Source: a virus
Lineage: Duplodnaviria; Heunggongvirae; Uroviricota; Caudoviricetes
Length of the DNA: 38,435 nucleotides
IMG/VR virus record: IMGVR_UViG_2778261530_000011
Direction: 5' to 3' (one strand)
The position numbers and the translations under genes were made by a program. The notes under the pieces are model-generated. The model had not been told where the DNA came from. It saw only the letters and a program-made list of their open reading frames with translations, and made no database searches. Positions within the stretch are counted from its first letter, which is position 1. Every line of letters starts with the position of its first letter. Below, in pieces: positions 2,402 through 32,963 of the stretch.

Positions 2402-2714
2402 TCTCTGCCTTATTCAATCGTTCATCAATCAAGGTCTCAATACTCTTAATATCTTTATGAGTATAAGTTAGTTTTTTCTTAAGTTCGCTTAATGTGTAGC
2501 CTTCTACTCGGATCAAGCCACCAAACGCTTCATCAATAAATGAACGCCCATAACGGTTATATCCAGTCAACTCAACATGAACTAAATCATACTCTTTGAG
2601 AAAGCCTGCCAGATATTTGCGAAAGTTTTCCCCACAGCCTGCCCCATCGTCTGGATAGCGCCCGTAAGGCTTACTGTTGAAGTCTTTGATAACATTGATG
2701 TTTTTAGTCTTCAT
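2382..2714 (-). CDS. STAS-like small protein (DUF4325-like, anti-sigma-antagonist-like fold)
   Basis: 110-aa ORF; size and sequence character (SFIDEAFGGLIRVEGY) recalled as DUF4325, which typically accompanies GHKL ATPases; overlaps flanking genes by 11 and 20 nt. Confidence 0.5.
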   Translation of the reverse strand: MKTKNINVIKDFNSKPYGRYPDDGAGCGENFRKYLAGFLKEYDLVHVELTGYNRYGRSFIDEAFGGLIRVEGYTLSELKKKLTYTHKDIKSIETLIDERLNKAESDAGRG

Positions 2715-3813
2715 AGCTGACCTTGATGTTCCACTGAATTAAAGTACCTGGTACTTTATGAGTTAACTCATTAATTTTATCACCTTTCTTATTAGAAAGC
2801 TTGAACATACCTAAATTACTGTAAATCCAAAGATTTCCATGTTCATTATTTAGTACTAGAGCTTTAATACTCTTACTTCCTTGACCATGTTTATCATTGG
2901 CTGTACCGGTTACGTCTCCAATCATAGAAATTGCTATTTTTACTGCATCAGAAACAATACCTACTTTTACTTTAGAGCGCTCTTTATAACCTAAACCTAT
3001 TCTCTCAAGTTCTTCGTTAACCGCAACCTTTAGATCTGGATATTTTGATTTGAGCGTACTCATAAACCATGTCTTTTGCATTACAGTTTCAGGTATACCA
3101 ACACCTTCATCATATATAGCAAGATAAAGCTGGTCATGAATTACGTGACATGCAAGCCACCATCGTTTCTCATCATTATTTTTATGCGGATAGGCGTGTA
3201 AACCAACATTATTTATTGCTTCCTGAACAGCATCTGCATATGTATGTTCTGTTTCAGGTTTCATCTTGTTTTTATAAATTTCTTTCTGGATGAAATCTAT
3301 AATCTCATCTCTATATTCTCCTCCTACCCCGCTAATAATGGGCAAGTTTTCAACGTTTTCGAAGACAGGTTTTAATTTTTCGCCCCGACATAAGGCGACA
3401 AGACCTGAGTCTCTTAAAAGCTGATTAACTTTAAAATCTGTTGAAAATAATAATCTGTACGATAAACCTTTACGAATTGAAGTTTCAACACTGGCATAAA
3501 GTATTACTAATGCTGCCATTTTTATTGTTTTTGTATTTGTAAAATCTAAATATAATCTCTCATCAGGATTATATTTTTTATTCCTGACGTGATTTATCGA
3601 GTGTAGAGAGTGCGCAAAAAAATTAGGCTTATCTGGTGAATATATTGAAAACTCAGATGGAAACCGAATAAAGGTATTATCTTTTTTCTTTTGAGATTTT
3701 TTTTGTTGACGAAACTGCGAATACTCTTTCCCTTGACGGGAAACACTTCGCTGCCATCTTTTAAAAGCCAGCCTAATTCTTACACTTTTTTCCTTATTGG
3801 CCTTGTTTTCCAT
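2704..3813 (-). CDS. GHKL-superfamily (histidine-kinase-like) ATPase with uncharacterised N-terminal half
   Basis: 369-aa ORF; N-box-like EAINNVGLHA, G1 box DEGVGIP (DxGxG), G2 box GQGSKS in the C-terminal half; lysine-rich N-terminus; putative AGGGGA SD upstream of the ATG at 3813. Confidence 0.6.
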   Translation of the reverse strand: MENKANKEKSVRIRLAFKRWQRSVSRQGKEYSQFRQQKKSQKKKDNTFIRFPSEFSIYSPDKPNFFAHSLHSINHVRNKKYNPDERLYLDFTNTKTIKMAALVILYASVETSIRKGLSYRLLFSTDFKVNQLLRDSGLVALCRGEKLKPVFENVENLPIISGVGGEYRDEIIDFIQKEIYKNKMKPETEHTYADAVQEAINNVGLHAYPHKNNDEKRWWLACHVIHDQLYLAIYDEGVGIPETVMQKTWFMSTLKSKYPDLKVAVNEELERIGLGYKERSKVKVGIVSDAVKIAISMIGDVTGTANDKHGQGSKSIKALVLNNEHGNLWIYSNLGMFKLSNKKGDKINELTHKVPGTLIQWNIKVSYED

Positions 3814-9245: not shown

Positions 9246-9841
9246 TTTGCTGCTCCTCATCATATCGACCCTGCAAGGTCGGTTGGTTTCTCCACAAAAC
9301 AGAGAAGAACACCTGCGGTGGCAGCCGCCCGGATGGATTGGGTTATGAGCCCGTCGTCCGGTGATGCTCTTCTCTGTTTTGTAAAAAGAGCGGTACCAGC
9401 CGGAAGCAAGTGTACAAACTGGTACCGCCAAAGCAGTGGCTGTTGTGGTGGGGTTGTCACTCAGGCGTATGGTCAACCTGACAATCCGGTGTCCTCAACG
9501 GGGAAAGAGTAACCCAGCCATACTTACCGCCGCGCCATTTCGCGGATGACCACAACGCTGAGAGCACTTAGCCAGTTACGGCACCACACTTTGTCGCGGC
9601 TCCATAAATGCCCTCATCGTTGCACCCTGGTCTCTTCCCAGGCGTCAAACCGGATCGCCACGCTGGTTAGGCGTCTTATCAGCATCATCATTGACTTGCA
9701 CATTCCGGCTACCTGGTTTGTTTGCCCTAGCAAGGAGTGGATTGTCCCCTTTAACGTCCCCAGACCGCTAACGACGCATGTGCCATACGCCGTGTTACAA
9801 CCAAATTTTGTTTGAATCTTGCCTGCCTCATGTTTCTTTTG

Positions 9842-9867
9842 GATACATTATGTATCTCATGGGTACA
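9842..9867. promoter_or_regulatory. Candidate left operator (OL-like): overlapping palindromes GATACAT-TA-ATGTATC and TGTAT-N7-GTACA
   Basis: Dyad symmetry read directly; shares the TGTAY-N7-GTACA motif with the cI-cro intergenic sites. Confidence 0.4.
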
Positions 9868-9876
9868 TTGTCAAGT

Positions 9877-9901
9877 ATAAAAAAACCTGCCGAAGCAGGT
9901 T
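9877..9901 (-). terminator. Rho-independent terminator downstream of cI
   Basis: On the minus strand, GC stem cctgc / gcagg with 4-nt loop followed by a T-run (A-run 9879-9885 on +), 13 nt past the cI stop. Confidence 0.6.
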
Positions 9902-9913
9902 CATAAATATTGA

Positions 9914-10588
9914 TTAGGCCTTTATTGTGTATCTTCTTGGTTTTCCCGAGAAAATCACTGTACCAATTATAGAGCAATTACCGTTAATCTTAATGTAAGG
10001 CTCAGGCCAGTTTGGGTTTAATGCTTTGAGATAACGCTGTGTTCCATCTTCTATCAATCGCTTGAAGGTGGTTTCGCCTGTATCGTGCATCAATGCAATA
10101 ACGTCGTCACCGTGGCAGGCAGGGACTTCGGGATCAACAAAAATCATGTCTCCAGGGCGGTACTCATCAATCATTGAATCACCAATCACCCGCAAGATAT
10201 AAGTCATTTCGCCACAGGGTACAGGGCAGGGATACGTTTCTGCTGTGCTCAAATCAACCTCAGAATAGCCAACTTCTTTCCATGCTCCGGCCTGTACCCA
10301 TGATATGACAGGGACTAACGTTATTTGTTTGTTAGTGATTGAAACATCAGGTTTTTTTGTGATGTTCGTTGTCTGGTGTTCTTGATCAAGCCATCCGACA
10401 GGCAGGTCGAAACATTTTTCGATGTGCCGTGCCATGCTGTCACCGATATTTTTAGTAGCGCCATCCCCCATAAACCTGCTGGTTTGGGTTGGCTCGCGAT
10501 CAATCATGGTGGCAAAGGATGAATTTCCGCCAACACCATCTCTCAGTTTTCTGGCGTTAGACCGCCGGATGTCATGGATTGTTTTCAT
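9914..10588 (-). CDS. cI: CI-type prophage repressor (N-terminal HTH, C-terminal S24 LexA-like autopeptidase)
   Basis: 224-aa ORF; GDSM serine motif and downstream Lys of S24 peptidases; divergent from a Cro-like gene; ATG at 10588 has no SD, consistent with a leaderless PRM-type transcript. Confidence 0.85.
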   Translation of the reverse strand: MKTIHDIRRSNARKLRDGVGGNSSFATMIDREPTQTSRFMGDGATKNIGDSMARHIEKCFDLPVGWLDQEHQTTNITKKPDVSITNKQITLVPVISWVQAGAWKEVGYSEVDLSTAETYPCPVPCGEMTYILRVIGDSMIDEYRPGDMIFVDPEVPACHGDDVIALMHDTGETTFKRLIEDGTQRYLKALNPNWPEPYIKINGNCSIIGTVIFSGKPRRYTIKA

Positions 10589-10910: not shown

Positions 10911-11474
10911 ATGAGGCTAACCGTGGGTAAGTATCACTGGAAAGTAGAAAAACAGCCTGAGTGGTACGTGAAAGCTGTCAGAAAAACTATCGCAGCGTTG
11001 CCGGGTGGTTACGCTGAAGCAGCTGACTGGCTGGATGTAACAGAGAACGCATTATTTAACCGCCTTCGTGCCGATGGCGATCAGATTTTCCCGCTGGGAT
11101 GGGCAATGGTTTTACAGCGCGCGGCTGACACTCACTACATTGCGGATGCTGTCGCACAGTCTGCTGGTGGGGTGTTCGTATCGCTTCCTGAAATTGAGGA
11201 AGTAGAGAACGCCGATATAAACCAGCGCCTGCTGGAAGTCATCGAACAGATCGGGAATTACTCAAAGCAGATTCGTTCGGCAATCGAAGATGGGGTCGTG
11301 GAGCCACACGAGCAGACAGCAATTAATGATGAGTTGTATCTGTCAATTTCGAAGCTCCAAGAGCATGCAGCACTGGTCTACAAAATCTTTTGCGCTCCAG
11401 AAAAGAGTGACGCCCGCGAGTGTGCAGCTCCGGGCGTCGTGGCGTTTTGTGTCTGTGGAGAAACTAACGCATGA
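10911..11474 (+). CDS. YdaT-family / CII-like protein
   Basis: 187-aa ORF immediately after cro, as in Rac-type immunity regions; family assignment from recall. Confidence 0.5.
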   Translation: MRLTVGKYHWKVEKQPEWYVKAVRKTIAALPGGYAEAADWLDVTENALFNRLRADGDQIFPLGWAMVLQRAADTHYIADAVAQSAGGVFVSLPEIEEVENADINQRLLEVIEQIGNYSKQIRSAIEDGVVEPHEQTAINDELYLSISKLQEHAALVYKIFCAPEKSDARECAAPGVVAFCVCGETNA

Positions 11475-12307
11475 ACAGTTTAACGGCAAATAACCGTTTG
11501 TCGCAACAGCTGGTGGTCAGTGTCGCTGAACACCTGTTGTTACGGCATGAATGCAGATTACCAAATCACCTGGCTGTAAGTAACCACAGAGAACTTTACC
11601 TGACTGTGGGGGGCGAGTTGTGCGGGAACTTAACCGCTGGTTTCGTGACGGAAGAGGGCTTTATGTCCATGTTATTCGTTGGGAACCAGAAACACAGCGC
11701 GTTATCTATCTTCGCAAAGACTACCCGCATGAGTGCTTTAGTCCTTTGTGGAAATTCAGGCGTGATTTTGTTGAGTGTGAAGGACCACCAGCACATTGAT
11801 TCTGCCATTCCGGGACGTTACACTGTTCAGGCACCTTATAAAGCGGGTGACGGGATTGGCGTCCTGGAAATGTTATCGGCGATATATGACGCGCCAGCGT
11901 CTTTTTTATCGTCTGTGTCTGTGCACACCCAAATTATGGTGGGCTGGACGGGGGCACCGAAAGGTGCGCCGGTTTCCGATAACGCCGGTTACGCCAACCC
12001 CGTTCAGTTCACCACCAGCGAAATTGGCGTTTCCGGTGGTGAAGGTAATTCACTGTTATCGGAGGCTGCCATCATGGCTACTGTCCCAGCCCTCACTCGT
12101 CTGAATGATGAAGACTTACATAAACTCAGTTATGTAACAACTGCACTACGTGCTCTGCGCAAGGTAACTCTTTCGGATCCGCAGGCGCATCAGGTTTTGG
12201 TAGAAACCCTTCTTAACTTGCAGGCTGAACGTATTCGTCTGGCGGATAAGGCTAATTTTCATATTCACCGTCTCCTGAATATCAGCGGAGGGCATCGTCA
12301 TGCTTAA
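11471..12307 (+). CDS. Hypothetical protein
   Basis: 278-aa ORF; ATGA start/stop overlap with the upstream gene; no recognisable Walker motifs. Confidence 0.55.
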   Translation: MNSLTANNRLSQQLVVSVAEHLLLRHECRLPNHLAVSNHRELYLTVGGELCGNLTAGFVTEEGFMSMLFVGNQKHSALSIFAKTTRMSALVLCGNSGVILLSVKDHQHIDSAIPGRYTVQAPYKAGDGIGVLEMLSAIYDAPASFLSSVSVHTQIMVGWTGAPKGAPVSDNAGYANPVQFTTSEIGVSGGEGNSLLSEAAIMATVPALTRLNDEDLHKLSYVTTALRALRKVTLSDPQAHQVLVETLLNLQAERIRLADKANFHIHRLLNISGGHRHA

Positions 12308-21877: not shown

Positions 21878-22084
21878 ATGAATAAAGAACAATCTGCTGA
21901 TGATCCCTCCGTGGATCTGATTCGTGTAAAAAATATGCTTAATAGCACCATTTCTATGAGTTACCCTGATGTTGTAATTGCATGTATAGAACATAAGGTG
22001 TCTCTGGAAGCATTCAGGGCAATTGAGGCAGCGTTGGTGAAGCACGATAATAATATGAAGGATTATTCCCTGGTGGTTGACTGA
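21878..22084 (+). CDS. Small hypothetical protein (lambda p79-like)
   Basis: 68 aa; position and sequence as recalled for the lambda right-end ORF. Confidence 0.55.
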
Positions 22085-22248
22085 TCACCATAACTGCTAA
22101 TCATTCAAACTACTTAACCTGTGACAGAGCCAACACGCAGTCTGTCACTGTCAGGAAAGTGGTAAAACTGCAACTCAATTACTGCAATGCCCTCGTAATT
22201 AAGTGAATTTACAATATCGTCCTGTTCGGAGGGAAGAACGCGGGATGT

Positions 22249-22443
22249 TCATTCTTCATCACTTTTAATTGATGTATATGCTCTCTTTTCTGACGTTAGC
22301 CTCCGACGGCAGGCTTCAATGACCCAGGCTGAGAAATTCCCGGACCCTTTTTGATCAAGAGCGATGTTAATTTGTTCAATCATTTGGTTAGGAAAGCGGA
22401 TGTTGCGGGTTGTTGTTCTGCGGGTTCTGTTCTTCGTTGACAT
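22249..22443 (-). CDS. Small ribbon-helix-helix-type DNA-binding protein (YlcI/DUF3950-like)
   Basis: 64 aa; basic N-terminus followed by an RHH-like segment. Confidence 0.5.
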   Translation of the reverse strand: MSTKNRTRRTTTRNIRFPNQMIEQINIALDQKGSGNFSAWVIEACRRRLTSEKRAYTSIKSDEE

Positions 22444-22642
22444 GAGGTTGCCCCCTATTCAGTGTCGCTGATTTGTATTGTCTGAAGTTGTTTTTACGTT
22501 AAGTTGATGCAGATCAATTAATACGATACCTGCGTCATAATTGATTATTTGACGTGGTTTGATGGCGTAGATGCACGTTGTGACATGTAGATGATAATTA
22601 TTATCATTTTGTGGGTCCTTTCCGGCGATCCGACAGGTTACG

Positions 22643-22654
22643 GGGCGGCGACCT
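22643..22654 (+). other. cosN cohesive-end site (12-nt GGGCGGCGACCT) with flanking cosQ and cosB
   Basis: Exact lambda cohesive-end 12-mer preceded by CCGACAGGTTACG (lambda right-end sequence) and followed by a cosB-like region up to Nu1. Confidence 0.85.
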
Positions 22655-22830
22655 CGCGGTTTTTCACTATTTATGAAAATTTTTCAGGGAAAATCGTGTC
22701 GGTACTTCTCGAATATAACTTTTTGTTTTTTTTAATATTTCATCCGTAAAGGTCCGACATGAAAGTGTCCGAAAATGCCTTTTTCTGGCGTTTTCATGTC
22801 GGGCCTTGTATTTGATAATGGGGTGTTTTC

Positions 22831-23379
22831 ATGAAGGTTAATAAAAAGAGGCTTGCCGAAATTTTCAACGTGGACCCGCGGACGATTGAACGCTGGCAGT
22901 CTCAGGGACTCCCTTGCGCCTCCAAAGGTAGTAAGGGCATTGAATCTGTATTTGATACTGCCATGGCAATTCAGTGGTATGCGCAGAGGGAAACTGATAT
23001 CGAAAACGAAAAGCTCCGCAAAGAACTGGACGATTTGCGTGCGGCAGCGGAGTCAGATTTACAACCCGGCACCATTGACTATGAACGCTACAGGCTCACA
23101 AAAGCGCAGGCAGATGCGCAGGAACTGAAAAATGCCCGTGAAGACGGAGTAGTGCTGGAAACTGAACTGTTTACCTTCATTCTGCAACGTGTGGCACAGG
23201 AGATTTCGGGGATACTTGTGCGTGTGCCGTTGACATTACAGCGTAAATATCCGGACATTTCACCATCACACCTTGATGTGGTGAAAACTGAAATCGCGAA
23301 AGCCTCCAATGTTGCAGCTAAGGCCGGTGAAAACGTGGGCGGGTGGATCGATGATTTCAGACGCGCAGAAGGCAGCTAA
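22831..23379 (+). CDS. nu1: Terminase small subunit
   Basis: 182 aa, clear lambda Nu1 homologue (N-terminal winged HTH, IENEKLR motif). Confidence 0.9.
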
Positions 23380-25279
23380 TGCAGCCGGTGCGATAGCTAC
23401 AGGGCTTTTATCTCTCATTATTCCTGTTCCACTGACGACAGTTCAGTGGGCCAATAAACATTATTACCTTCCTAAAGAGTCGTCTTATACCCCGGGGCGG
23501 TGGGAAACACTGCCGTTTCAGGTTGGCATCATGAACTGTATGGGCAACGATCTGATTCGCACGGTTAACCTGATTAAATCTGCCCGTGTTGGTTATACAA
23601 AGATGTTGCTGGGAGTGGAGGCTTATTTTATTGAGCATAAATCACGCAACAGCCTTCTTTTTCAGCCCACGGACTCAGCTGCTGAAGATTTTATGAAATC
23701 TCATGTTGAGCCAACGATAAGGGATGTTCCTGCATTGCTGGAGCTGGCTCCATGGTTCGGAAGAAAACACCGCGATAATACGCTCACCCTGAAGCGTTTT
23801 TCCTCCGGTGTGGGGTTCTGGTGTCTGGGTGGTGCGGCAGCAAAAAACTACCGTGAAAAATCCGTGGATGTGGTCTGTTATGACGAGCTTTCCTCGTTCG
23901 AACCGGATGTTGAAAAAGAGGGTTCGCCAACCCTGCTGGGGGATAAACGTATTGAGGGCTCTGTATGGCCAAAATCCATTCGCGGCTCGACGCCTAAAAT
24001 CAAAGGCTCCTGCCAGATCGAAAAAGCCGCTAACGAGTCGGCACACTTCATGCGTTTTTATGTGCCCTGTCCGCACTGTGGGGAGGAGCAGTATCTGAAA
24101 TTTGGCGATGATGCCTCGCCTTTCGGTCTTAAGTGGGAGAAGAATAAGCCAGAAAGTGTTTTCTACCTTTGTGAGCATCATGGCTGTGTGATCCATCAGT
24201 CTGAGCTTGACCAGAGTAACGGGCGGTGGATCTGTGAAAACACGGGCATGTGGACCCGTGACGGCCTGATGTTTTTCAGCGCCCGGGGTGATGAAATTCC
24301 GCCGCCGCGCTCCATCACTTTCCATATCTGGACGGCGTACAGTCCGTTCACCACCTGGGTACAGATTGTCTATGACTGGCTGGATGCACTGAAAGATCCC
24401 AACGGCCTGAAAACCTTTGTGAACACCACGCTGGGCGAGACCTGGGAAGAGGCTGTGGGCGAAAAACTCGATCACCAGGTGCTGATGGATAAGGTTGTGC
24501 GTTACACGGCGGCGGTGCCTGCCCGGGTGGTTTATCTGACGGCGGGCATTGACTCGCAGCGAAACCGTTTTGAGATGTATGTCTGGGGATGGGCTCAGGG
24601 AGAGGAAGCCTTTCTGGTGGATAAAATCATCATTATGGGGCGTCCCGATGAGGAAGAGACGCTGTTACGTGTGGATGCGGCGATCAACAAAAAATACCGC
24701 CATGCAGACGGAACCGAAATGACTATTTCCCGTGTCTGCTGGGACATCGGGGGGATCGATGGCGAAATCGTTTATCAGAGGTCAAAAAAACACGGTGTTT
24801 TCCGGGTGCTGCCGGTAAAAGGCGCATCTGTCTATGGCAAGCCGGTGATCACCATGCCAAAAACCCGCAATCAGCGGGGCGTGTATCTGTGTGAAGTGGG
24901 GACGGACACCGCAAAAGAAATTCTCTATGCCCGTATGAAAGCCGATCCCACGCCTGTGGATGAAGCCACGTCGTATGCCATCCGTTTTCCTGATGATCCG
25001 GAGATTTTTTCGCAGACAGAGGCGCAGCAACTGGTCGCGGAAGAGCTTGTGGAGAAGTGGGAAAAAGGAAAGATGCGTCTGCTGTGGGATAACAAAAAGC
25101 GGCGTAACGAAGCGCTGGACTGCCTGGTGTATGCCTACGCGGCATTACGTGTGTCCGTGCAACGCTGGCAGCTTGATCTGGCTGTACTGGCAAAATCCCG
25201 GGAAGAAGAGACGACCCGGCCAACCCTTAAAGAACTGGCAGCGAAGCTGTCCGGAGGAGTGAATGGTTACAGTCGCTGA
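23351..25279 (+). CDS. A: Terminase large subunit
   Basis: Lambda gpA homologue; start placed at ATG 23351 overlapping the Nu1 3' end so that length matches lambda A; the track's longer ORF begins at 23309. Confidence 0.9.
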
Positions 25280-25469
25280 ACTGCAGGCGCTGCGTCAGGC
25301 GCGCCTTGATTTATTAACCGGTAAACGGGTGGTGTCTGTCCAGAAAGATGGTCGCAGAATTGAATATACGGCGGCTTCTCTGGATGAGCTTAACCGGGCG
25401 ATCAATGATGCGGAGTCGGTACTGGGGACAACCCGGCGTCGCCGTCGTCCGCTGGGAGTGAGGTTATGA
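25263..25469 (+). CDS. W: Head-tail joining protein
   Basis: 68 aa, lambda gpW homologue (LLTGKRVVSVQKDGRR). Confidence 0.9.
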   Translation: MVTVAELQALRQARLDLLTGKRVVSVQKDGRRIEYTAASLDELNRAINDAESVLGTTRRRRRPLGVRL

Positions 25470-27058
25470 AACGAACGCCTGTCCTGATTGATGTGAACGG
25501 CGTTCCGCTTCGTGAGAGTCTCAGCTACAACGGGGGCGGTGCAGGATTTGGCGGGCAAATGGCTGAGTGGTTGCCACCGGCGCAGAGTGCCGATGCGGCC
25601 CTGCTGCCCGCGTTGCGTCTGGGGAATGCCCGGGCAGATGATCTGGTGCGCAATAACGGAATAGCGGCTAATGCGGTGGCTCTGCATAAGGATCACATTG
25701 TCGGGCATATGTTTCTGATCAGCTACCGTCCGAACTGGCGCTGGCTGGGGATGCGGGAGACCGCAGCAAAAAGCTTTGTCGATGAGGTGGAGGCGGCCTG
25801 GTCGGAATACGCCGAAGGGATGTTTGGCGAGATCGACGTGGAAGGAAAACGCACGTTCACGGAATTTATCCGTGAAGGTGTGGGCGTTCATGCGTTTAAC
25901 GGCGAAATCTTTGTGCAGCCGGTCTGGGATACGGAAACCACGCAGTTATTCCGTACGCGTTTTAAAGCCGTGAGTCCGAAACGGGTGGACACGCCTGGAC
26001 ACGGTATGGGGAACCGTTTTCTGCGGGCCGGTGTGGAGGTCGATCGATATGGCCGTGCCGTCGCGTACCATATCTGTGAGGATGATTTTCCGTTCTCTGG
26101 TAGTGGACGATGGGAACGGATCCCGCGTGAACTTCCCACCGGGCGTCCGGCCATGCTGCATATTTTCGAGCCGGTGGAGGACGGGCAGACCCGTGGGGCT
26201 AATCAGTTTTACAGCGTCATGGAACGGCTGAAGATGCTCGATTCCCTGCAGGCAACACAGCTTCAGTCGGCCATAGTGAAGGCGATGTATGCAGCGACGA
26301 TTGAAAGTGAACTTGATACCGAAAAGGCCTTTGAATATATCGCCGGCGCGCCACAGGAGCAGAAGGATAATCCGCTTATTAATATTCTGGAGAAGTTCTC
26401 CAGCTGGTATGACACGAATAACGTGACACTGGGCGGTGTCAAAATTCCGCACCTTTTCCCTGGTGATGATCTGAAACTACAGACTGCGCAGGATTCAGAC
26501 AATGGATTTTCTGCGCTTGAACAGGCGCTGCTGCGGTATATCGCCGCCGGTCTTGGCGTTTCCTACGAACAGTTGTCCCGTGATTACTCGAAGGTCAGTT
26601 ACTCAAGTGCCCGCGCCTCCGCCAATGAGTCGTGGCGCTATTTTATGGGGCGGCGAAAATTTATTGCGGCCCGGCTGGCCACGCAGATGTTTTCCTGCTG
26701 GCTGGAAGAGGCACTTCTTCGGGGGATTATTCGTCCGCCACGGGCACGTTTTGATTTTTATCAGGCGCGATCAGCCTGGTCACGGGCAGAGTGGATTGGT
26801 GCCGGAAGAATGGCCATTGACGGGCTCAAGGAAGTCCAGGAATCAGTGATGCGCATTGAGGCCGGACTGAGCACGTATGAGAAAGAGCTGGCGCTGATGG
26901 GCGAGGATTATCAGGACATTTTCCGCCAGCAGGTCAGGGAATCTGCTGAGCGGCAAAAAGCCGGACTCTCACGTCCGGTGTGGATAGCGCAGGCGTATCA
27001 GCAGCAGATAGCGGAGAGTCGCAGGCCGGAAGAGGAGACAACACCACGTGAGACGTAA
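25466..27058 (+). CDS. B: Portal protein
   Basis: 530 aa lambda gpB homologue. Confidence 0.95.
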   Translation: MKRTPVLIDVNGVPLRESLSYNGGGAGFGGQMAEWLPPAQSADAALLPALRLGNARADDLVRNNGIAANAVALHKDHIVGHMFLISYRPNWRWLGMRETAAKSFVDEVEAAWSEYAEGMFGEIDVEGKRTFTEFIREGVGVHAFNGEIFVQPVWDTETTQLFRTRFKAVSPKRVDTPGHGMGNRFLRAGVEVDRYGRAVAYHICEDDFPFSGSGRWERIPRELPTGRPAMLHIFEPVEDGQTRGANQFYSVMERLKMLDSLQATQLQSAIVKAMYAATIESELDTEKAFEYIAGAPQEQKDNPLINILEKFSSWYDTNNVTLGGVKIPHLFPGDDLKLQTAQDSDNGFSALEQALLRYIAAGLGVSYEQLSRDYSKVSYSSARASANESWRYFMGRRKFIAARLATQMFSCWLEEALLRGIIRPPRARFDFYQARSAWSRAEWIGAGRMAIDGLKEVQESVMRIEAGLSTYEKELALMGEDYQDIFRQQVRESAERQKAGLSRPVWIAQAYQQQIAESRRPEEETTPRET

Positions 27059-28553
27059 TCTTTCACACATTATTGCCGCAGCATTCAATGAACCGCTGCT
27101 TCTGGAGCCCGCCTATGCGCGGGTTTTCTTTTGCGCGCTCGGGCGCGAGATGGGGGCAGCAAGTCTTTCGGTACCACAACAGCAGGTACAGTTTGATGCT
27201 CCCGGAATGCTGGCTGAAACGGACGAGTACATGGCCGGAGGTAAACGACCTGCCCGTGTTTACAGGGTGGTGAACGGTATTGCTGTACTGCCGGTGACCG
27301 GCACGCTGGTGCACCGGCTGGGTGGTATGCGGCCATTTTCCGGAATGACAGGCTATGACGGTATTGTCGCCTGTCTTCAGCAGGCAATGGCGGATAGCCA
27401 GGTGCGGGGCGTACTGCTGGACATTGACAGTCCGGGCGGGCAGGCCGCCGGCGCGTTTGACTGCGCTGACATGATTTACCGCCTCCGTCAGCAGAAGCCG
27501 GTCTGGGCACTGTGCAATGACACGGCCTGTTCTGCAGCCATGCTGCTGGCGTCGGCCTGCTCCCGACGGCTGGTTACCCAGACATCCCGTATCGGTTCCA
27601 TTGGCGTGATGATGAGCCATGTCAGCTATGCCGGTCATCTGGCGCAGGCCGGTGTGGATATCACGCTGATTTACTCAGGGGCGCACAAGGTGGATGGCAA
27701 TCAGTTTGAAGCGTTGCCGGCAGAGGTTCGCCAGGACATGCAGCAGCGGATTGATGCGGCGCGCCGGATGTTTGCCGAAAAAGTGGCGATGTTTACCGGT
27801 CTGTCTGTTGATGCAGTCACGGGAACAGAGGCCGCCGTTTTTGAAGGTCAGTCCGGCATTGAGGCCGGGCTGGCGGATGAATTAATCAATGCGTCGGATG
27901 CCATCAGTGTGATGGCCACGGCGCTGAACAGTAATGTCAGAGGAGGCACTATGCCGCAATTAACTGCAACGGAAGCCGCCGCGCAGGAGAACCAGCGAGT
28001 GATGGGGATCCTGACATGCCAGGAAGCGAAAGGACGTGAACAGCTTGCCACGATGCTGGCAGGACAACAGGGCATGAGCGTTGAACAGGCCCGGGCGATT
28101 CTGGCCGCGGCGGCACCGCAGCAGCCGGTGGCATCCACGCAGAGTGAAGCCGATCGCATTATGGCGTGTGAAGAAGCGAACGGTCGTGAACAACTGGCGG
28201 CAACACTGGCGGCGATGCCGGAGATGACGGTGGAAAAAGCCCGCCCGATCCTGGCTGCTTCACCGCAGGCGGATGCCGGACCATCACTCCGTGATCAGAT
28301 CATGGCACTGGATGAGGCAAAAGGGGCTGAGGTGCAGGCTGAACAGCTGGCTGCCTGCCCGGGAATGACTGTGGAGAGCGCCCGGGCTGTGCTGGCTGCG
28401 GGATCAGGTAAGGCAGAACCGGTCTCTGCATCCACAACCGCCATGTTTGAACATTTCATGGCGAACCATTCACCGGCAGCGGTACAGGGTGGCGTGCCAC
28501 AGACGTCAGCAGATGGTGATGCGGACGTGAAAATGCTCATGGCCATGCCATGA
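27048..28553 (+). CDS. C: Head maturation protease / scaffold (S49 peptidase domain; Nu3-like scaffold region in the C-terminal part)
   Basis: 501 aa lambda gpC homologue with GTG start overlapping B; C-terminal third contains three tandem ~47-aa repeats. Confidence 0.9.
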   Translation: MRRNLSHIIAAAFNEPLLLEPAYARVFFCALGREMGAASLSVPQQQVQFDAPGMLAETDEYMAGGKRPARVYRVVNGIAVLPVTGTLVHRLGGMRPFSGMTGYDGIVACLQQAMADSQVRGVLLDIDSPGGQAAGAFDCADMIYRLRQQKPVWALCNDTACSAAMLLASACSRRLVTQTSRIGSIGVMMSHVSYAGHLAQAGVDITLIYSGAHKVDGNQFEALPAEVRQDMQQRIDAARRMFAEKVAMFTGLSVDAVTGTEAAVFEGQSGIEAGLADELINASDAISVMATALNSNVRGGTMPQLTATEAAAQENQRVMGILTCQEAKGREQLATMLAGQQGMSVEQARAILAAAAPQQPVASTQSEADRIMACEEANGREQLAATLAAMPEMTVEKARPILAASPQADAGPSLRDQIMALDEAKGAEVQAEQLAACPGMTVESARAVLAAGSGKAEPVSASTTAMFEHFMANHSPAAVQGGVPQTSADGDADVKMLMAMP

Positions 28554-28589
28554 AGCCAGTGCTGACCATCAATAGGAGGTTTTTACAAT

Positions 28590-28937
28590 ATGGTGACGAA
28601 AACCATCACTGAACAGCGTGCGGAAGTACGTATTTTTGCCGGTAATGATCCGGCTCATACCGCCACAGGCAGCAGCGGGATTTCCTCGCCAACACCGGCA
28701 CTGACGCCCCTGATGCTGGATGAAGCCACCGGGAAACTGGTGGTCTGGGACGGACAGAAAGCCGGTAGTGCGGTTGGCATACTGGTACTGCCGCTTGACG
28801 GCACAGAGACGGCGCTGACGTATTACAAGTCGGGAACCTTTGCGACGGAGGCAATCCACTGGCCTGAAAGTGTGGATGAACACAAAAAGGCCAACGCCTT
28901 TGCTGGCAGTGCCCTGAGTCACGCGGCGCTGCCGTAA
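28590..28937 (+). CDS. D: Head decoration protein
   Basis: 115 aa lambda gpD homologue; AGGAGG SD. Confidence 0.9.
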   Translation: MVTKTITEQRAEVRIFAGNDPAHTATGSSGISSPTPALTPLMLDEATGKLVVWDGQKAGSAVGILVLPLDGTETALTYYKSGTFATEAIHWPESVDEHKKANAFAGSALSHAALP

Positions 28938-28994
28938 CACGTTATCAGGCCACCGCGGTGGCCTGACTGATTTCTGAATGAAAGGAACTGATTT

Positions 28995-30023
28995 ATGGGA
29001 TTGTTTACGACCCGCCAGTTACTCGGTTATACCGAACAAAAAGTTAAATTTCGTGCGCTGTTTCTGGAGCTGTTTTTCCGCCGTACGGTGAATTTCCATA
29101 CCGAAGAGGTGATGCTGGACAAAATTACCGGAAAAACGCCGGTGGCGGCCTATGTCTCCCCGGTTGTTGAAGGAAAAGTGCTGCGTCATCGTGGTGGTGA
29201 AACCCGCGTGTTGCGTCCGGGCTACGTCAAGCCGAAACATGAATTTAATTACCAGCAGGCGGTTGAGCGCCTTCCTGGTGAAGATCCATCTCAACTGAAT
29301 GATCCGGCTTACCGCCGTCTGCGTATCATTACCGATAACCTCAAACAGGAAGAGCACGCGATTGTCCAGGTGGAAGAAATGCAGGCGGTAAATGCTGTGT
29401 TGTATGGCAAATACACCATGGAAGGAGACCAGTTCGAGAAAATTGAGGTCGATTTTGGCAGGTCGACGAAGAATAACATCACTCAGGGTAGTGGTAAGGA
29501 GTGGTCAAAACAGGATCGTGACACGTTCGATCCTACACATGATATTGACCTCTACTGCGACCAGGCCAGCGGTCTTGTGAATATTGCCATTATGGACGGT
29601 ACCGTCTGGCGTCTTCTGAATGGTTTTAAGCTGTTCCGCGAAAAACTGGATACCCGTCGCGGTTCAAATTCTCAACTCGAAACGGCAGTGAAAGATCTGG
29701 GCGCAGTGGTGTCCTTCAAGGGGTATTACGGCGATCTGGCCATTGTGGTGGCGAAAACGTCTTATATAGCAGAAGACGGTATCGAAAAACGTTATCTTCC
29801 AGATGGCATGCTGGTTCTGGGGAATACTGCTGCAGATGGGATCCGTTGTTACGGTGCCATTCAGGATGCTCAGGCGTTGTCCGAAGGTGTGGTGGCCTCT
29901 TCCCGTTATCCGAAACACTGGCTGACGGTAGGGGATCCCGCCCGTGAATTTACCATGACGCAGTCCGCGCCGCTGATGGTGTTGCCGGACCCGGATGAGT
30001 TTGTGGTGGTACAGGTGAAATAA
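28995..30023 (+). CDS. E: Major capsid protein
   Basis: 342 aa lambda gpE homologue. Confidence 0.95.
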   Translation: MGLFTTRQLLGYTEQKVKFRALFLELFFRRTVNFHTEEVMLDKITGKTPVAAYVSPVVEGKVLRHRGGETRVLRPGYVKPKHEFNYQQAVERLPGEDPSQLNDPAYRRLRIITDNLKQEEHAIVQVEEMQAVNAVLYGKYTMEGDQFEKIEVDFGRSTKNNITQGSGKEWSKQDRDTFDPTHDIDLYCDQASGLVNIAIMDGTVWRLLNGFKLFREKLDTRRGSNSQLETAVKDLGAVVSFKGYYGDLAIVVAKTSYIAEDGIEKRYLPDGMLVLGNTAADGIRCYGAIQDAQALSEGVVASSRYPKHWLTVGDPAREFTMTQSAPLMVLPDPDEFVVVQVK

Positions 30024-30030
30024 TCCGTGA

Positions 30031-30060
30031 GCGGGGGCGAAATGCCCCCGTGTCTTTTTT
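30031..30060 (+). terminator. Rho-independent terminator-like hairpin after the major capsid gene
   Basis: Stem gcgggggc/gcccccg with 5-nt loop followed by TGTCTTTTTT. Confidence 0.55.
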
Positions 30061-30074
30061 CACAGGGGGCTGAT

Positions 30075-30449
30075 ATGGCAACGAAAGAGCAAAATCTGAA
30101 ACGGCTTGATGAACTGGCCCTGATTCTGGGGCGTGAGCCGGATATATCCGGGAGTGCCGCAGAGATAGCGCAGCGGGTGGCAGAATGGGAAGAGGAAATG
30201 CAGTCATCCGGCGATGATGTACAGGTTATGAATATGGATATCCGGGAGCGGGAAACCGCGGCTCATGATGTTCGTGAGGAAACATCCGGCGCGTTAACGC
30301 GCATCAGAGTTCTGACCTGCCTCCATCTCTGTGGCGTTGATGGTGAAACGGGGGAATCCGTTGAGCTTGCGGATGTTGGTCGGGTGATTCTGATTATGTC
30401 CTCAGATGCAAAAACACACGTTGATGGTGGAATGGCTGTTTATGCGTGA
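30075..30449 (+). CDS. FI-position DNA-packaging/head-completion protein (sequence-divergent from lambda FI)
   Basis: ATG at 30075 with GGGGG SD; 124 aa; acidic; occupies the FI slot between E and FII. Confidence 0.55.
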   Translation: MATKEQNLKRLDELALILGREPDISGSAAEIAQRVAEWEEEMQSSGDDVQVMNMDIRERETAAHDVREETSGALTRIRVLTCLHLCGVDGETGESVELADVGRVILIMSSDAKTHVDGGMAVYA

Positions 30450-30795
30450 TTTTCAGAATGCCTTTGATGCCGCCCTTGCCGGGGTGGACAGTACGATTGT
30501 TGAAGTGATGGGCATCAGTGCGCAGTTCACCTCCGGTGCACAGCGTGGCGGCGAGGTTCATGGCGTTTTTGACGATCCGGAGTCGCTGGGTTTTGCCAGT
30601 AGTGGGATCCGTATTGAAGGAAGTAACCCGTCATTATTTGTGCTTACGGATACGGTTTGTGCTGTACGGCGTGGTGACACGCTGACCATTAACGGCGAGA
30701 TGTTCTGGGTGGACCGTGTTTCTCCGGATGACGGAGGGAGTTGTTATCTCTGGCTCAACCGGGGGCAACCACCTGCCGCCAGCCGTCGTCGCTGA
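30442..30795 (+). CDS. FII: Head-tail connector protein
   Basis: 117 aa lambda gpFII homologue (WVDRVSPDDGGSC.LWL). Confidence 0.85.
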   Translation: MRDFQNAFDAALAGVDSTIVEVMGISAQFTSGAQRGGEVHGVFDDPESLGFASSGIRIEGSNPSLFVLTDTVCAVRRGDTLTINGEMFWVDRVSPDDGGSCYLWLNRGQPPAASRRR

Positions 30796-30806
30796 AAGGG
30801 GGATGT

Positions 30807-31385
30807 ATGGCCATACAGGGTCTTGAGCAGGCCGTTGAAAACCTCAGCCGTATCAGCAAAACGGCGGTGCCCGGTGCCGCCGCAATGGCCATTAACCGCG
30901 TTGCTTCATCCGCGATATCGCAGTCGGCGTCACAGGTTGCCCGTGAGACAAAGGTACGCCGGAAACTGGTAAAGGAAAGGGCCAGGCTGAAAAGGGCCAC
31001 GGTCAAAAATCCGCAGGCCAGAATCAAGGTTAACCGGGGGGATTTGCCCGTAATAAAGCTGGGTAACGTGCGGATTGTCCTGTCCCGACGCAGGCGTCGT
31101 AAAAAGGGGCAGCGTTCAGCCCTGAAAGGTGGCGGCAGCGTGCTTGTGGTGGGAAACCGTCGTATTCCCGGCGCGTTTATTCAGCAACTGAAAAATGGCC
31201 GCTGGCATGTCATGCAGCGTGTGGCCGGGAAAAACCGTTACCCCATTGATGTGGTGAAAATCCCGATGGCGGTGCCGCTGACCACGGCGTTTAAACAGAA
31301 TATTGAGCGGATACGGCGTGAGCGTCTTCCGAAAGAGCTGGGCTATGCGCTGCAGCATCAACTGAGGATGGTAATAAAGCGATGA
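30807..31385 (+). CDS. Z: Tail completion protein
   Basis: 192 aa, near-identical to lambda gpZ; the track ORF starts earlier in frame. Confidence 0.9.
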   Translation: MAIQGLEQAVENLSRISKTAVPGAAAMAINRVASSAISQSASQVARETKVRRKLVKERARLKRATVKNPQARIKVNRGDLPVIKLGNVRIVLSRRRRRKKGQRSALKGGGSVLVVGNRRIPGAFIQQLKNGRWHVMQRVAGKNRYPIDVVKIPMAVPLTTAFKQNIERIRRERLPKELGYALQHQLRMVIKR

Positions 31386-31777
31386 AACATACTGAACTCC
31401 GTGCAGCCGTACTGGATGCACTGGAGAAGCATGACACCGGGGCGACGTTTTTTGATGGTCGCCCCGCTGTTTTTGATGAGGCGGATTTTCCGGCAGTTGC
31501 CGTTTATCTCACCGGCGCTGAATACACGGGCGAAGAGCTGGACAGCGATACCTGGCAGGCGGAGCTGCATATCGAAGTTTTCCTGCCTGCTCAGGTGCCG
31601 GATTCAGAGCTGGATTCGTGGATGGAGTCCCGGATTTATCCGGTGATGAGCGATATCCCGGCACTGTCAGATTTGATCACCAGTATGGTGGCCAGTGGCT
31701 ATGACTATCGGCGCGACGATGATGCGGGCCTGTGGAGTTCAGCCGATCTGACTTATGTCATTACCTATGAAATGTGA
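31382..31777 (+). CDS. U: Tail terminator protein
   Basis: 131 aa, near-identical to lambda gpU. Confidence 0.95.
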
Positions 31778-31784
31778 GGACGCT

Positions 31785-32525
31785 ATGCCTGTACCAAATC
31801 CAGTAATGCCGGTGAAAGGTGCCGGGACCACACTGTGGGTTTATAAGGGGAACGGTGACCCTTATGCGAACCCGCTTTCAGACGTTGACTGGTCACGTCT
31901 GGCAAAAGTTAAAGACCTGACGCCCGGCGAACTGACCGCTGAGTCCTATGACGACAGCTATCTCGATGATGAAGATGCGGACTGGACTGCGACCGGACAG
32001 GGGCAAAAATCAGCCGGAGATACCAGCTTCACGCTGGCGTGGATGCCCGGAGAGCAGGGGCAGCAGGCGCTGCTGGCGTGGTTTAATGAAGGCGATACCC
32101 GTGCCTATAAAATCCGCTTCCCGAACGGCACGGTCGATGTGTTCCGTGGCTGGGTCAGCAGTATCGGTAAGGCGGTGACGGCGAAGGAAGTGATCACCCG
32201 CACGGTGAAAGTCACCAATGTGGGACGTCCGTCGATGGCAGAAGATCGCAGCACGGTAACAGCGGCAACCGGCATGACCGTGACGCCTGCCAGCACCTCG
32301 GTGGTGAAAGGGCAGAGCACCACGCTGACCGTGGCCTTCCAGCCGGAGGGCGTAACCGACAAGAGCTTTCGTGCGGTGTCTGCGGATAAAACAAAAGCCA
32401 CCGTGTCGGTCAGTGGTATGACCATCACCGTGAACGGCGTTGCTGCAGGCAAGGTCAACATTCCGGTTGTATCCGGTAATGGTGAGTTTGCTGCGGTTGC
32501 AGAAATTACCGTCACCGCCAGTTAA
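31785..32525 (+). CDS. V: Major tail tube protein
   Basis: 246 aa from ATG 31785 (GAGGA SD), near-identical to lambda gpV including the C-terminal Ig-like domain. Confidence 0.95.
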
Positions 32526-32540
32526 TCCGGAGAGTCAGCG

Positions 32541-32963
32541 ATGTTCCTGAAAACCGAATCATTTGAACATAACGGTGTGACCGTCACGCTTTCTGAACTG
32601 TCAGCCCTGCAGCGCATTGAGCATCTCGCCCTGATGAAACGGCAGGCAGAACAGGCGGAGTCAGACAGCAACCGGAAGTTTACTGTGGAAGACGCCATCA
32701 GAACCGGCGCGTTTCTGGTGGCGATGTCCCTGTGGCATAACCATCCGCAGAAGACGCAGATGCCGTCCATGAATGAAGCCGTTAAACAGATTGAGCAGGA
32801 AGTGCTTACCACCTGGCCCACGGAGGCAATTTCTCATGCTGAAAACGTGGTGTACCGGCTGTCTGGTATGTATGAGTTTGTGGTGAATAATGCCCCTGAA
32901 CAGACAGAGGACGCCGGGCCCGCAGAGCCTGTTTCTGCGGGAAAGTGTTCGACGGTGAGCTGA
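32541..32963 (+). CDS. G: Tail assembly chaperone G
   Basis: 140 aa lambda gpG homologue. Confidence 0.9.
   Translation: MFLKTESFEHNGVTVTLSELSALQRIEHLALMKRQAEQAESDSNRKFTVEDAIRTGAFLVAMSLWHNHPQKTQMPSMNEAVKQIEQEVLTTWPTEAISHAENVVYRLSGMYEFVVNNAPEQTEDAGPAEPVSAGKCSTVS

What the first reader, a model, noticed from the sequence alone, without database searches (positions are those of the whole stretch)
9246..9913. About 670 bp without a credible ORF between cI and the early-left operon, with long inverted repeats and no N-like gene
Where lambda carries N, nutL and rexAB, this phage has a long ORF-free segment. It contains a 15-bp perfect inverted repeat (9294-9308 with 9368-9382) separated by about 60 nt of GC-rich sequence, and a second dyad GGTACCAG...TGTACAA...CTGGTACC (9392-9426) that embeds the operator half-site motif. 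No Arg-rich N-like ORF is present on the minus strand. This could be a structured leader RNA acting in cis on antitermination (as HK022 put sites do) or an sRNA gene.
Basis: partly seen in the sequence, partly recalled or inferred. Interest (0 to 1): 0.55.

Follow-up and report, generated by a model that had tools for sequence, protein, structure and literature searches.

The report
Structured non-coding RNA array after cI
The 670-bp "empty" stretch after the phage repressor gene is a string of conserved, folded non-coding RNA modules, among them a pseudoknotted ~170-nt RNA that a third of E. coli genomes carry unannotated and a relative of the cell-division regulator DicF.

Summary
Window 9246-9913 has no conserved ORF and no N-like gene, and both dyads exist.

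On the minus strand it is the leader of the early-left (pL) operon. The order is: cI terminator, pL promoter with operator, then five RNA modules.

1. "X" (9794-9623) has five covariation-supported helices including a pseudoknot, and a 19-nt invariant junction. It has no Rfam match. It occurs in 1833 of 5426 complete E. coli genomes, in P1-like phage-plasmids next to tRNA-Ile, and in Uetakeviruses directly upstream of tRNA-Arg.
2. A long hairpin (9622-9553).
3. A cloverleaf-like module (9556-9442) sits where the Uetakeviruses carry tRNA-Arg, and also lies upstream of DicF in Qin.

My best reading is an early-expressed ncRNA precursor. It would end at the DicF-like terminator and be processed into separate RNAs, with read-through feeding yfdP.

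A put-like antiterminator role for X is not excluded but is weakened. X has one copy per phage, sits in short accessory (moron) cassettes, and is absent from the viable phage SfV, which keeps the same terminators. The function of X is unknown.

The parts
9883..9902 (-). Intrinsic terminator of the cI transcript (GAACCTGC-TTCG-GCAGGTTT followed by TTTTAT)
   Evidence: Terminator scan. A terminator is annotated at the equivalent place in phages Ayreon and SfV.
9842..9874 (-). pL-type early-left promoter: TTGACA at 9874-9869, a 16-nt spacer, CATAAT at 9852-9847. It overlaps the perfect operator palindrome GATACATTATGTATC (9842-9856). The start site, near 9840, is inferred.
   Evidence: 11 of 12 consensus match. 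Palindrome search. A promoter is annotated at the same place in Ayreon.
9623..9794 (-). Element X, a conserved pseudoknotted RNA core. Helices: P1 9792-9785/9779-9772; P2 9765-9761/9715-9711, enclosing a variable insert; invariant junction GGUAGCCGGAAUGUGCAAG 9713-9695; variable hairpin P3; P4 9674-9671/9663-9660; pseudoknot 9668-9665/9651-9648; P5 9642-9638/9630-9626 with loop GAAGAGA.
   Evidence: Alignments A2 and A4. Pair counts: 98.6% paired, 10 pairs changed on both sides, 0 of 500 shuffles reach the observed value, slid controls 28-50%. Model R1 scores 137.9 bits and finds a single copy in the window. No Rfam match.
9553..9622 (-). Long hairpin hp3 (CAACG-AU-GAGGGCAUU ... AGUGCUCUC-A-GCGUUG). 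It is an optional 3' extension of X, and in Uetakeviruses its 3' strand abuts the tRNA-Arg 5' end.
   Evidence: Alignment A1. The 3' anchor is found in 81 of the 131 places where the 19-nt core of X occurs. 57 loci match at 90% identity or more. Predicted in the single-sequence fold. Covariation was not tested.
9442..9556 (-). Cloverleaf-like module b: closing stem GUUGUGGU/ACCACAAC plus three arms, one of them T-arm-like (CAGG-UUGACCAUACG-CCUG). It occupies the position that tRNA-Arg holds in Uetakevirus cassettes. It is homologous to the ydfC-dicF spacer of Qin and to a P1 segment.
   Evidence: Pair counts: 96.6% paired, 5 pairs changed on both sides, covariation score 0 of 500 (only 9 sequences). 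ARAGORN and Rfam do not call it a tRNA.
9383..9441 (-). Stem 9429-9419/9399-9390; U-tract 9387-9383.
   Evidence: Aligns with DicF of Qin at the DicF position but lacks the first ~20 nt of DicF. Hairpins of the same family (UUGGCGGU...ACCGCCCUUUUUACA) end the cassette in most related loci. The Rfam DicF model does not hit it.
9294..9382 (-). It ends in UUUUGU and may act as a second terminator or an RNase III site.
   Evidence: Pair counts: 95.3% paired, 7 pairs changed on both sides, 0 of 500 shuffles, slid controls 36-48%.
9252..9281 (-). Small covarying hairpin (CGACCUUGCAGGGUCG, 9281-9266) followed by the yfdP ribosome-binding site GAGGAG (9257-9252). The yfdP ATG is at 9245.
   Evidence: Sequence. 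The alignment shows variants that keep the hairpin.

Best explanation
The segment is the untranslated 5' leader of the early-left (pL) operon of an N-less lambdoid prophage of the 2H10/cdtI/Ayreon type. It is a modular array of non-coding RNA elements, not spacer DNA.

**Proposed mechanism (inferred).**
1. When the cI repressor is lost, pL fires.
2. The first about 460 nt of transcript fold co-transcriptionally into X, hairpin hp3, a tRNA-like cloverleaf and a DicF-family hairpin whose U-tract terminates part of the transcripts.
3. The terminated precursor is cut at the tRNA-like module, by RNase P or RNase E as at real tRNAs. This releases a DicF-type base-pairing sRNA with a C/U-rich loop, and a separate stable structured RNA, X.
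4. Polymerases that read through the DicF-like terminator and the I1 stem go on to express yfdP, yfdQ and the rest of the early-left genes.

In other phages the same cassette carries a real tRNA: tRNA-Arg(UCU) after X-hp3, or tRNA-Ile(CAU) before X. The array therefore behaves as a portable accessory "ncRNA island".

X has a pseudoknot and about 45 invariant unpaired or junction nucleotides. It most likely binds a specific partner, a host or phage protein, RNA polymerase or a ligand. Which partner is unknown.

**Shown:** the anatomy, conservation, covariation, contexts and homology to the DicF locus.
**Inferred:** transcription from pL, termination at I3, processing, and any trans-acting role of X.
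For: **Promoter, terminator and orientation.**

**Non-coding.**

**X.**
- 82 distinct sequences, of which 34 are below 95% identity to one another.
- 26 pairs are 98.6% paired, 10 of them with compensatory changes; 0 of 500 shuffles reach this.
- X is always co-oriented with local transcription.
- Of 122 upstream contexts, 62 are a co-oriented cI-like repressor about 150 nt away. In 29 loci X lies directly upstream of tRNA-Arg(UCU). In 18 it lies directly downstream of tRNA-Ile(CAU).

**Cassette end.** 116 of 125 unique loci have a strong intrinsic terminator at a median of 221 nt after X. These terminators are DicF-family hairpins.

**DicF locus homology.** Window 9560-9385 aligns with the Qin ydfC-dicF spacer plus DicF.

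**Other modules.** Module b and I1 both covary.

**Related known sRNA.** The sister locus in SfV hits the Rfam sRNA family STnc100, which has a multi-hairpin domain plus terminator, at 39.5 bits.

**Prevalence.** 1833 of 5426 E. coli genomes carry X, and no listed hit has an annotated feature under it.
Against: - No expression, end-mapping or processing data were available. Every step after "the DNA encodes these folds" is inference.
- The DicF-like hairpin lacks the 5' ~20 nt of DicF and is not recognised by the Rfam DicF or STnc100 models. It may be only a terminator.
- Module b is not called a tRNA by ARAGORN or Rfam, so RNase P recognition is a guess. Its covariation rests on only 9 sequences.
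- Many of the loci share recent ancestry, so context counts are not independent events.
- In P1, X is followed directly by ban with no DicF-like terminator. The cassette model does not cover every context.
- Single-module folding energies are not better than those of shuffled sequences.
Confidence: 0.55

Rival explanations
1. X, or the whole leader, is a cis-acting processive antiterminator RNA. It would work like HK022 put: nascent X binds the transcribing RNA polymerase and lets it read through the DicF-like terminator, I1 and later terminators, replacing N/nut in these N-less lambdoid phages.
For: - X is the first structured element after pL in at least 62 loci with diverse repressors.
- Strong terminators follow it in 116 of 125 loci.
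- No N-like ORF lies in the leader or within about 2 kb downstream.
- Invariant junction nucleotides and a pseudoknot fit recognition of a fixed partner such as RNA polymerase.
- Others have speculated that N-less relatives of 2H10 use a put-like mechanism (PMC12315714).
Against: - There is only one copy per phage and none in the pR operon.
- The model built from X finds nothing in the HK022 immunity region, and the architecture differs from the two-hairpin put.
- SfV, a viable phage, has the same pL, the same DicF-like terminator, I1 and yfdP, but carries orf33 instead of X.
- X also heads a short accessory (moron) cassette of about 1 kb in Uetakeviruses. In P1 it sits between a tRNA and ban with no terminator to overcome.
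Confidence: 0.2
2. X is a ligand-sensing (riboswitch-like) or catalytic (self-cleaving or processing) RNA. It would control or generate the ends of the neighbouring tRNA and sRNA.
For: - It has a compact multi-helix fold with a pseudoknot, and long invariant single-stranded stretches of 19 nt, 7 nt and 11 nt. This is the signature of aptamers and ribozymes.
- Its spacing to tRNA ends is fixed: the tRNA-Arg starts right after hp3, and the tRNA-Ile ends about 14 nt before P1.
Against: - No match to any Rfam riboswitch or ribozyme, even at E up to 10.
- No obvious expression platform, since hp3 is not a terminator.
- The downstream genes are unrelated across contexts.
Confidence: 0.12
3. The segment is functionless mosaic debris: decayed tRNA-island and DicF-operon fragments left by recombination between phages, kept only by hitch-hiking.
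For: - The region is visibly mosaic, and different sub-segments match different phage groups.
- The DicF-like part has lost the DicF 5' end.
- SfV does without X.
Against: - Compensatory changes keep 26 + 33 + 29 base pairs in three modules.
- Invariant junctions persist across lambdoid, P1-like and Uetakevirus backgrounds and several enterobacterial genera.
- Orientation is always the same relative to transcription.
- 34% of E. coli genomes carry X.
Confidence: 0.06
4. A small protein or N-like antiterminator is encoded here, for example the 89-aa plus-strand ORF 9546-9815 annotated as "phage protein" in 2H10 and cdtI, or the 66-aa minus-strand ORF 9260-9460.
For: Open frames exist. Depositors annotated hypothetical proteins over them.
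Against: - No Pfam hit.
- Frames are broken by stops in P1-like and other homologues.
- Conserved blocks are separated by indels that are not multiples of three.
- The variation follows base-pairing, not codon positions.
- No Arg-rich motif is present.
Confidence: 0.03

Closest known systems
DicF sRNA locus of the Qin prophage (Rfam RF00039), in the dicB early-left operon
   Same: - It sits in the same place in a lambdoid early-left transcript.
- The roughly 115 nt upstream (module b) are about 90% identical to the Qin ydfC-dicF spacer.
- The hairpin shares UUUGGCGGUAnCAGUUU and CCGCyCUUUUU with DicF and ends in a U-tract.
   Different: - The first ~20 nt of DicF (UUUCUGGUGACG...) are missing.
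- The loop differs.
- The Rfam DicF model gives no hit even at E up to 10.
- Here it lies in the leader, before any ORF. In Qin it lies after ydfABC.
STnc100 / PasD prophage sRNAs (Rfam RF02076; Zhu, Shabalina & Storz 2026, bioRxiv 10.64898/2026.05.13.724894)
   Same: - The architecture is a multi-hairpin domain closed by a UGGUG/CACCA-type stem and followed by a terminator hairpin.
- The equivalent locus of SfV scores 39.5 bits against STnc100, and a P1 segment scores 33.4 bits.
   Different: - The window's own module b plus terminator is not detected by the STnc100 model.
- The SfV score is below the gathering score of 47.
- The preprint places PasD within 10 kb of the Q antiterminator gene in over 98% of hits, and STnc100 among the most frequent Rfam hits flanking PasA, PasC and PasD. 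It does not describe a position downstream of cI.
HK022 put antiterminator RNAs
   Same: - A promoter-proximal structured RNA in the early operon of a lambdoid phage that lacks N.
- It lies upstream of intrinsic terminators.
   Different: - From my own knowledge, put is about 70 nt with two hairpins and is present in both the pL and pR operons.
- X is about 170 nt with five helices and a pseudoknot. It is single-copy, is not found in HK022, and also occurs outside early operons.
Large structured phage RNAs that sit next to tRNA genes (ROOL, GOLLD), and the stable "species 1/2" RNAs co-transcribed with the T4 tRNA cluster. These are recalled from my own knowledge and were not tested beyond Rfam.
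   Same: Phage-borne, conserved, structured, of unknown function, and physically linked to tRNA genes.
   Different: - No Rfam match to ROOL or GOLLD.
- X is much smaller.
- In the samples examined here it is restricted to Enterobacteriaceae phages.

Membership tests
HK022 put RNA | Sequence or structure homology to putL/putR | tested here: not met
   Covariance model R1, built from X, finds nothing in the HK022 immunity region 22000-32600. A model of put itself was not available.
HK022 put RNA | Paired copies, one in the pL operon and one in the pR operon | tested here: not met
   One R1 hit in the 38-kb window. The next best scores 8.5 bits.
HK022 put RNA | Acts in cis on RNA polymerase to suppress downstream terminators without protein factors | not testable with these tools
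   The position upstream of terminators is compatible. SfV lacks X while keeping the same terminators.
Lambda N / nut antitermination | Small Arg-rich N protein encoded just downstream of pL | tested here: not met
   No such ORF in the leader or within about 2 kb downstream in any X locus. No Pfam hits.
Lambda N / nut antitermination | boxA plus a boxB hairpin (nutL) | not tested
   Checked only by eye. CGCUCUUUUUACAA after the DicF-like stem resembles boxA but coincides with the terminator U-tract. No boxB-like 5-bp hairpin was searched for systematically.
DicF (RF00039) | Match to the Rfam covariance model at the gathering score | tested here: not met
   No hit in the window even at E up to 10. 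The same model finds Qin DicF at 76.7 bits and the SfV counterpart at only 15.7 bits.
DicF (RF00039) | Positional and flank homology: a terminator hairpin GGCGG...CCGCC-U5 downstream of the conserved spacer in a lambdoid early-left transcript | tested here: met
   Alignment A3 with Qin and an O157 prophage.
DicF (RF00039) | 5' segment UUUCUGGUGACG... | tested here: not met
   It is deleted in the window relative to Qin.
STnc100 (RF02076) | Match to the Rfam covariance model at the gathering score (47 bits) | tested here: not met
   No hit in window 9280-9640. The SfV sister locus scores 39.5 bits and P1 scores 33.4 bits.
tRNA | Canonical cloverleaf recognised by ARAGORN or Rfam RF00005 | tested here: not met
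   ARAGORN finds no tRNA in the window, and the gathering-score Rfam scan of the window lists no tRNA. Module b occupies the tRNA-Arg position and has a closing stem plus three arms.
Any Rfam 15 family (for element X) | A covariance-model match overlapping 9623-9794 | tested here: not met
   Nothing at gathering scores. At E up to 10 the only overlap is a 14.6-bit chance hit on the opposite strand.

The most novel reading that the evidence does not exclude
Element X is a previously undescribed class of pseudoknotted RNA. It is carried by lambdoid, P1-like and epsilon15-like phages and so by about a third of E. coli genomes, and it has a specific biochemical activity. That activity could be a factor-independent RNA polymerase-modifying antiterminator unrelated to put, a ribozyme or riboswitch tied to tRNA and sRNA maturation, or a decoy for a host defence or RNA-binding factor. 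On this reading the leader as a whole is a tRNA-punctuated phage "ncRNA operon".
Probability: 0.3. Interest if true: 0.85.

Novelty: new variant of a known kind. Interest (0 to 1): 0.62.

Why it matters
E. coli prophages and phage P1 are among the best-studied genetic systems. This scan nevertheless finds a roughly 170-nt RNA fold with a pseudoknot and a 19-nt invariant junction that sits unannotated in a third of complete E. coli genomes and in P1 itself, between trnI and ban.

It gives N-less lambdoid phages a concrete candidate element for early-operon control.

It shows that the DicF locus is one instance of a wider, modular cassette: X, then a tRNA or tRNA-like module, then a DicF-type hairpin. 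That cassette moves between unrelated phage types.

It also supplies alignments and a covariance model that make the questions directly testable. Is X an antiterminator, a processed stable RNA, a sensor or a decoy?

Tried and rejected
- **Rfam.** Gathering and permissive scans found nothing in the region. Weak STnc370, STnc50 and rsmX hits at the cI terminator, and miRNA or hairpin-ribozyme hits on I1, are chance.
- **Literature search for sequence strings.** Full-text search for the invariant strings of X gave no relevant paper. The phage structured-RNA catalogue PMC10690425 holds no searchable supplement.
- **Genome-contig scan.** The degenerate pattern TGGCACATG-N6-8-AGCGGTC had too few specified bases. 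111 of the 120 returned loci were chance matches and only 9 were real. Taxonomic breadth is therefore under-sampled.
- **Second pseudoknot in X.** I considered pairing the P1 loop GCACAU with AUGUGC in the invariant junction, which RNAalifold prefers. Both sides are nearly invariant, and the few variants (L152, L155, L097) break the pairing rather than compensate. I do not claim it.
- **Alternative closing stem for module b.** GUGGUCA/UGACCAU is the MFE choice. I rejected it because Qin and other homologues mismatch there, whereas GUUGUGG/CCACAAC is kept.
- **Operator half-site in I3.** Rejected.
- **Coding ORFs.** Rejected.
- **SfV orf33 as an N substitute.** It is not Arg-rich and has no Pfam hit.
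- **P1 transcript data.** A literature search found nothing usable.

Full report
**Setting.** The window is a lambdoid prophage nearly identical to Escherichia phages 2H10, cdtI, Ayreon and a set of Stx2c phages (98-99.6% identity over the region).
- cI is a 224-aa Peptidase_S24/LexA-type repressor on the minus strand, 9914-10588.
- Its transcript ends at an intrinsic terminator, 9902-9883.
- An 11-of-12 sigma-70 promoter follows: TTGACA at 9874-9869, a 16-nt spacer, CATAAT at 9852-9847.
- A perfect operator palindrome, 9842-9856, overlaps the promoter.
- Ayreon's depositors annotated a terminator and a promoter at the same places.
- The next gene on that strand is yfdP (ATG at 9245), followed by yfdQ and yfdR.

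The finding's interval is therefore the roughly 600-nt untranslated leader of the early-left operon. Everything below is read on the minus strand.

**Observation check.** Both dyads are present as described. The first extends to 25-nt arms and the second has 10-nt perfect arms.
- The interval holds only mechanical ORFs of 32-89 aa, and none hits Pfam.
- Among homologues, the conserved blocks flanking the variable stretches differ in length by non-multiples of three, and several homologues carry stop codons.
- No Arg-rich N-like ORF lies here, or within about 2 kb downstream in any related locus.
- GC is raised: 0.53-0.57 against 0.35-0.47 in the flanks.
- The whole leader folds well below shuffled controls (z = -5.8, only 20 shuffles). 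Sub-segments alone do not, so thermodynamics is weak evidence.

**The region is a mosaic of conserved non-coding modules.** BLAST showed that different sub-segments recur in different phage groups.
- 9806-9550 recurs in P1, P7, D6 and SJ46 phage-plasmids between trnI and ban. It also recurs in epsilon15-like Uetakeviruses and a Klebsiella phage directly upstream of tRNA-Arg, and in the pL leader of mEp390.
- 9556-9442 recurs in the Qin prophage of K-12 between ydfC and dicB, and in O157 prophages.
- In every case the match has the orientation of local transcription.

**Element X (9794-9623).** A seven-sequence alignment already showed compensatory changes, for example CCUGG-GAAGAGA-CCAGG against CCUCG...CGAGG against GCCGG...CCGGC.
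This gave 82 distinct sequences, of which 34 are below 95% identical to one another.
- On these 34 I tested a structure of five helices: P1, the long-range P2 enclosing a variable insert, P4, a pseudoknot between the P4 loop and a downstream GGUG, and P5.
- It is 98.6% paired. Ten of 26 pairs changed on both sides. No shuffle of 500 reaches the observed covariation, and slid controls pair at only 28-50%.
- About 45 unpaired or junction nucleotides are invariant.
- The covariance model R1 scores the window copy at 137.9 bits and finds no second copy in the 38-kb window.
- R1 also finds X in Kosakonia, Phytobacter, Enterobacter, Escherichia whittamii and Superficieibacter. It finds nothing in HK022, SfV or Qin.
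- X has no Rfam match, even at E up to 10.
- It is present in 1833 of 5426 complete E. coli genomes, with 554 places on plasmids. None of the 25 hits sampled across the whole ranking has an annotated feature under it.
- Full-text search for its invariant strings finds nothing.

**Contexts of X.** I examined the 131 places in the fetched loci where the 19-nt core of X occurs.
- In 29, tRNA-Arg(UCU) starts exactly after the hp3 hairpin that follows X.
- In 18, tRNA-Ile(CAU) ends about 14 nt before P1.
- Of 122 upstream neighbours, 62 are a co-oriented cI-like repressor at a median of 153 nt. This is the same pL-leader position as in the window, although the repressors differ.

**The rest of the leader.**
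- **hp3 (9622-9553)** is a long hairpin. Its 3' anchor was found in 81 of the 131 places.
- **Module b (9556-9442)** has a closing stem GUUGUGGU/ACCACAAC and three arms, one of them T-arm-like. It sits exactly where the Uetakevirus cassettes have tRNA-Arg. Its pairs are 96.6% kept, with five compensatory pairs, but only nine sequences were available. It is about 90% identical to the spacer immediately upstream of DicF in Qin.
It shares UUUGGCGGUAnCAGUUU and CCGCyCUUUUU but lacks DicF's first ~20 nt, and the Rfam DicF model does not recognise it.
It is 95.3% paired, with seven compensatory pairs; 0 of 500 shuffles reach this.
- A small covarying hairpin then precedes the yfdP ribosome-binding site.

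**Cassette architecture.** With a simple terminator finder of my own, 116 of 125 unique X loci have a strong hairpin plus U-tract at a median of 221 nt after X.
- Inspection shows these are one family, UUGGCGGU...ACCGCCCUUUUUACA. This holds both after tRNA-Arg in Uetakeviruses and after cloverleaf modules in lambdoid leaders.
- The recurring unit is therefore: promoter, X, hp3, a tRNA or tRNA-like module, then a DicF-type hairpin/terminator.
- SfV's version of the cloverleaf plus terminator scores 39.5 bits against the Rfam sRNA family STnc100 (gathering score 47), and a P1 leader segment scores 33.4 bits.
- A 2026 preprint relates STnc100 to the prophage sRNA PasD.

**How it most likely works.** The shown facts are the folds, their conservation, their order, and the promoter and terminator signals. 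From these I infer an early-expressed ncRNA precursor.
- Part of the transcription ends at the DicF-like terminator.
- The tRNA-like module serves as a processing point, as real tRNAs do. This would release a DicF-type base-pairing RNA and a separate structured RNA, X.
- Read-through transcripts express the early-left genes.

I rate the put-like antiterminator idea at about 0.2.
- For it: X's position, the downstream terminators and the lack of N.
- Against it: X is single-copy. SfV has the same pL, terminators and yfdP but carries orf33 instead of X and is a viable phage. In Uetakeviruses X heads a roughly 1-kb accessory (moron) cassette. In P1 it lies between a tRNA and ban with no terminator.

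These facts fit an accessory, portable RNA gene better than an essential operon controller. The invariant junctions and the pseudoknot point to a specific binding partner or activity, which cannot be identified here.

**Comparison with known systems.**
- The DicF-like and cloverleaf parts are relatives of the DicF and STnc100 loci but fail both Rfam models. They are variants, not members.
- X belongs to no described family that I could find.
- It resembles ROOL and GOLLD, and the T4 tRNA-cluster stable RNAs, only in being a phage-borne structured RNA linked to tRNA genes. That comparison rests on my own knowledge.

**Limits.**
- There are no expression data.
- Many loci are closely related, so context counts overstate independence.
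- The shuffle control ignores phylogeny.
- The taxonomic survey was crippled by a poorly chosen pattern.
- hp3 covariation, sRNA targets and boxA/boxB were not tested.

Noticed in passing
window 11831-11907 (+) and 11932-12019 (+): Rfam isrK (55.4 bits) and C4 antisense RNA (82.8 bits) lie in tandem in the pR operon, inside a 278-aa ORF (11471-12307) that depositors call "immunity region". This points to a P1/P7 immI-type RNA-controlled antirepressor module in this lambdoid phage. SfV has the same pair.
   Followed up: partly
L009 (phage P1 AF234173) 1513-1691 and 571-690: Phage P1 carries element X, unannotated, between trnI (tRNA-Ile) and ban. A STnc100-like multi-hairpin segment (33.4 bits) lies upstream of tciA. 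Right after X, P1 has AUUUUCUGGUGA, which matches the 5' end of DicF.
   Followed up: partly
L002 (SfV U82619) 3147-3443 (-): In SfV, X and hp3 are replaced by orf33 (98 aa, no Pfam hit, not Arg-rich). pL, a cloverleaf variant, the DicF-like terminator, I1 and yfdP are all retained. This is a natural "X deletion" in a viable phage.
   Followed up: partly
L008 1742-1997; L010, L011 (Uetakevirus / Klebsiella phage moron between the terminase and portal genes): A self-contained accessory (moron) cassette between the terminase and portal genes: X, hp3, tRNA-Arg(UCU), DicF-like terminator, second terminator, then a small ORF. No sigma-70 consensus promoter was found upstream of X there.
   Followed up: partly
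window 9568-9551; L004, L006, L010, L013, L017 equivalents: A recurring motif of about 20 nt, (G)GAGUGCGCUUCCAGUUGUG / AGUGCUCUCAGCGUUGUG, immediately precedes the 5' end of several different modules (tRNA-Arg, module b, its variant b', and X in Klebsiella and Enterobacter phages). It may be a shared processing signal or a recombination junction between modules.
   Followed up: no
window 10911-11474 (+): The 187-aa ORF after cro is a CII-type regulator of the CP76 family (Pfam PF06892, E = 4e-14), not a lambda-type CII.
   Followed up: no
L007 (E. coli O104:H4 2011C-3493 prophage) 2501-3107: The outbreak strain's prophage has a 98%-identical leader (X through I1) behind an unrelated XRE-family repressor and different operators. 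The leader is therefore exchanged as a module independent of immunity type.
   Followed up: partly
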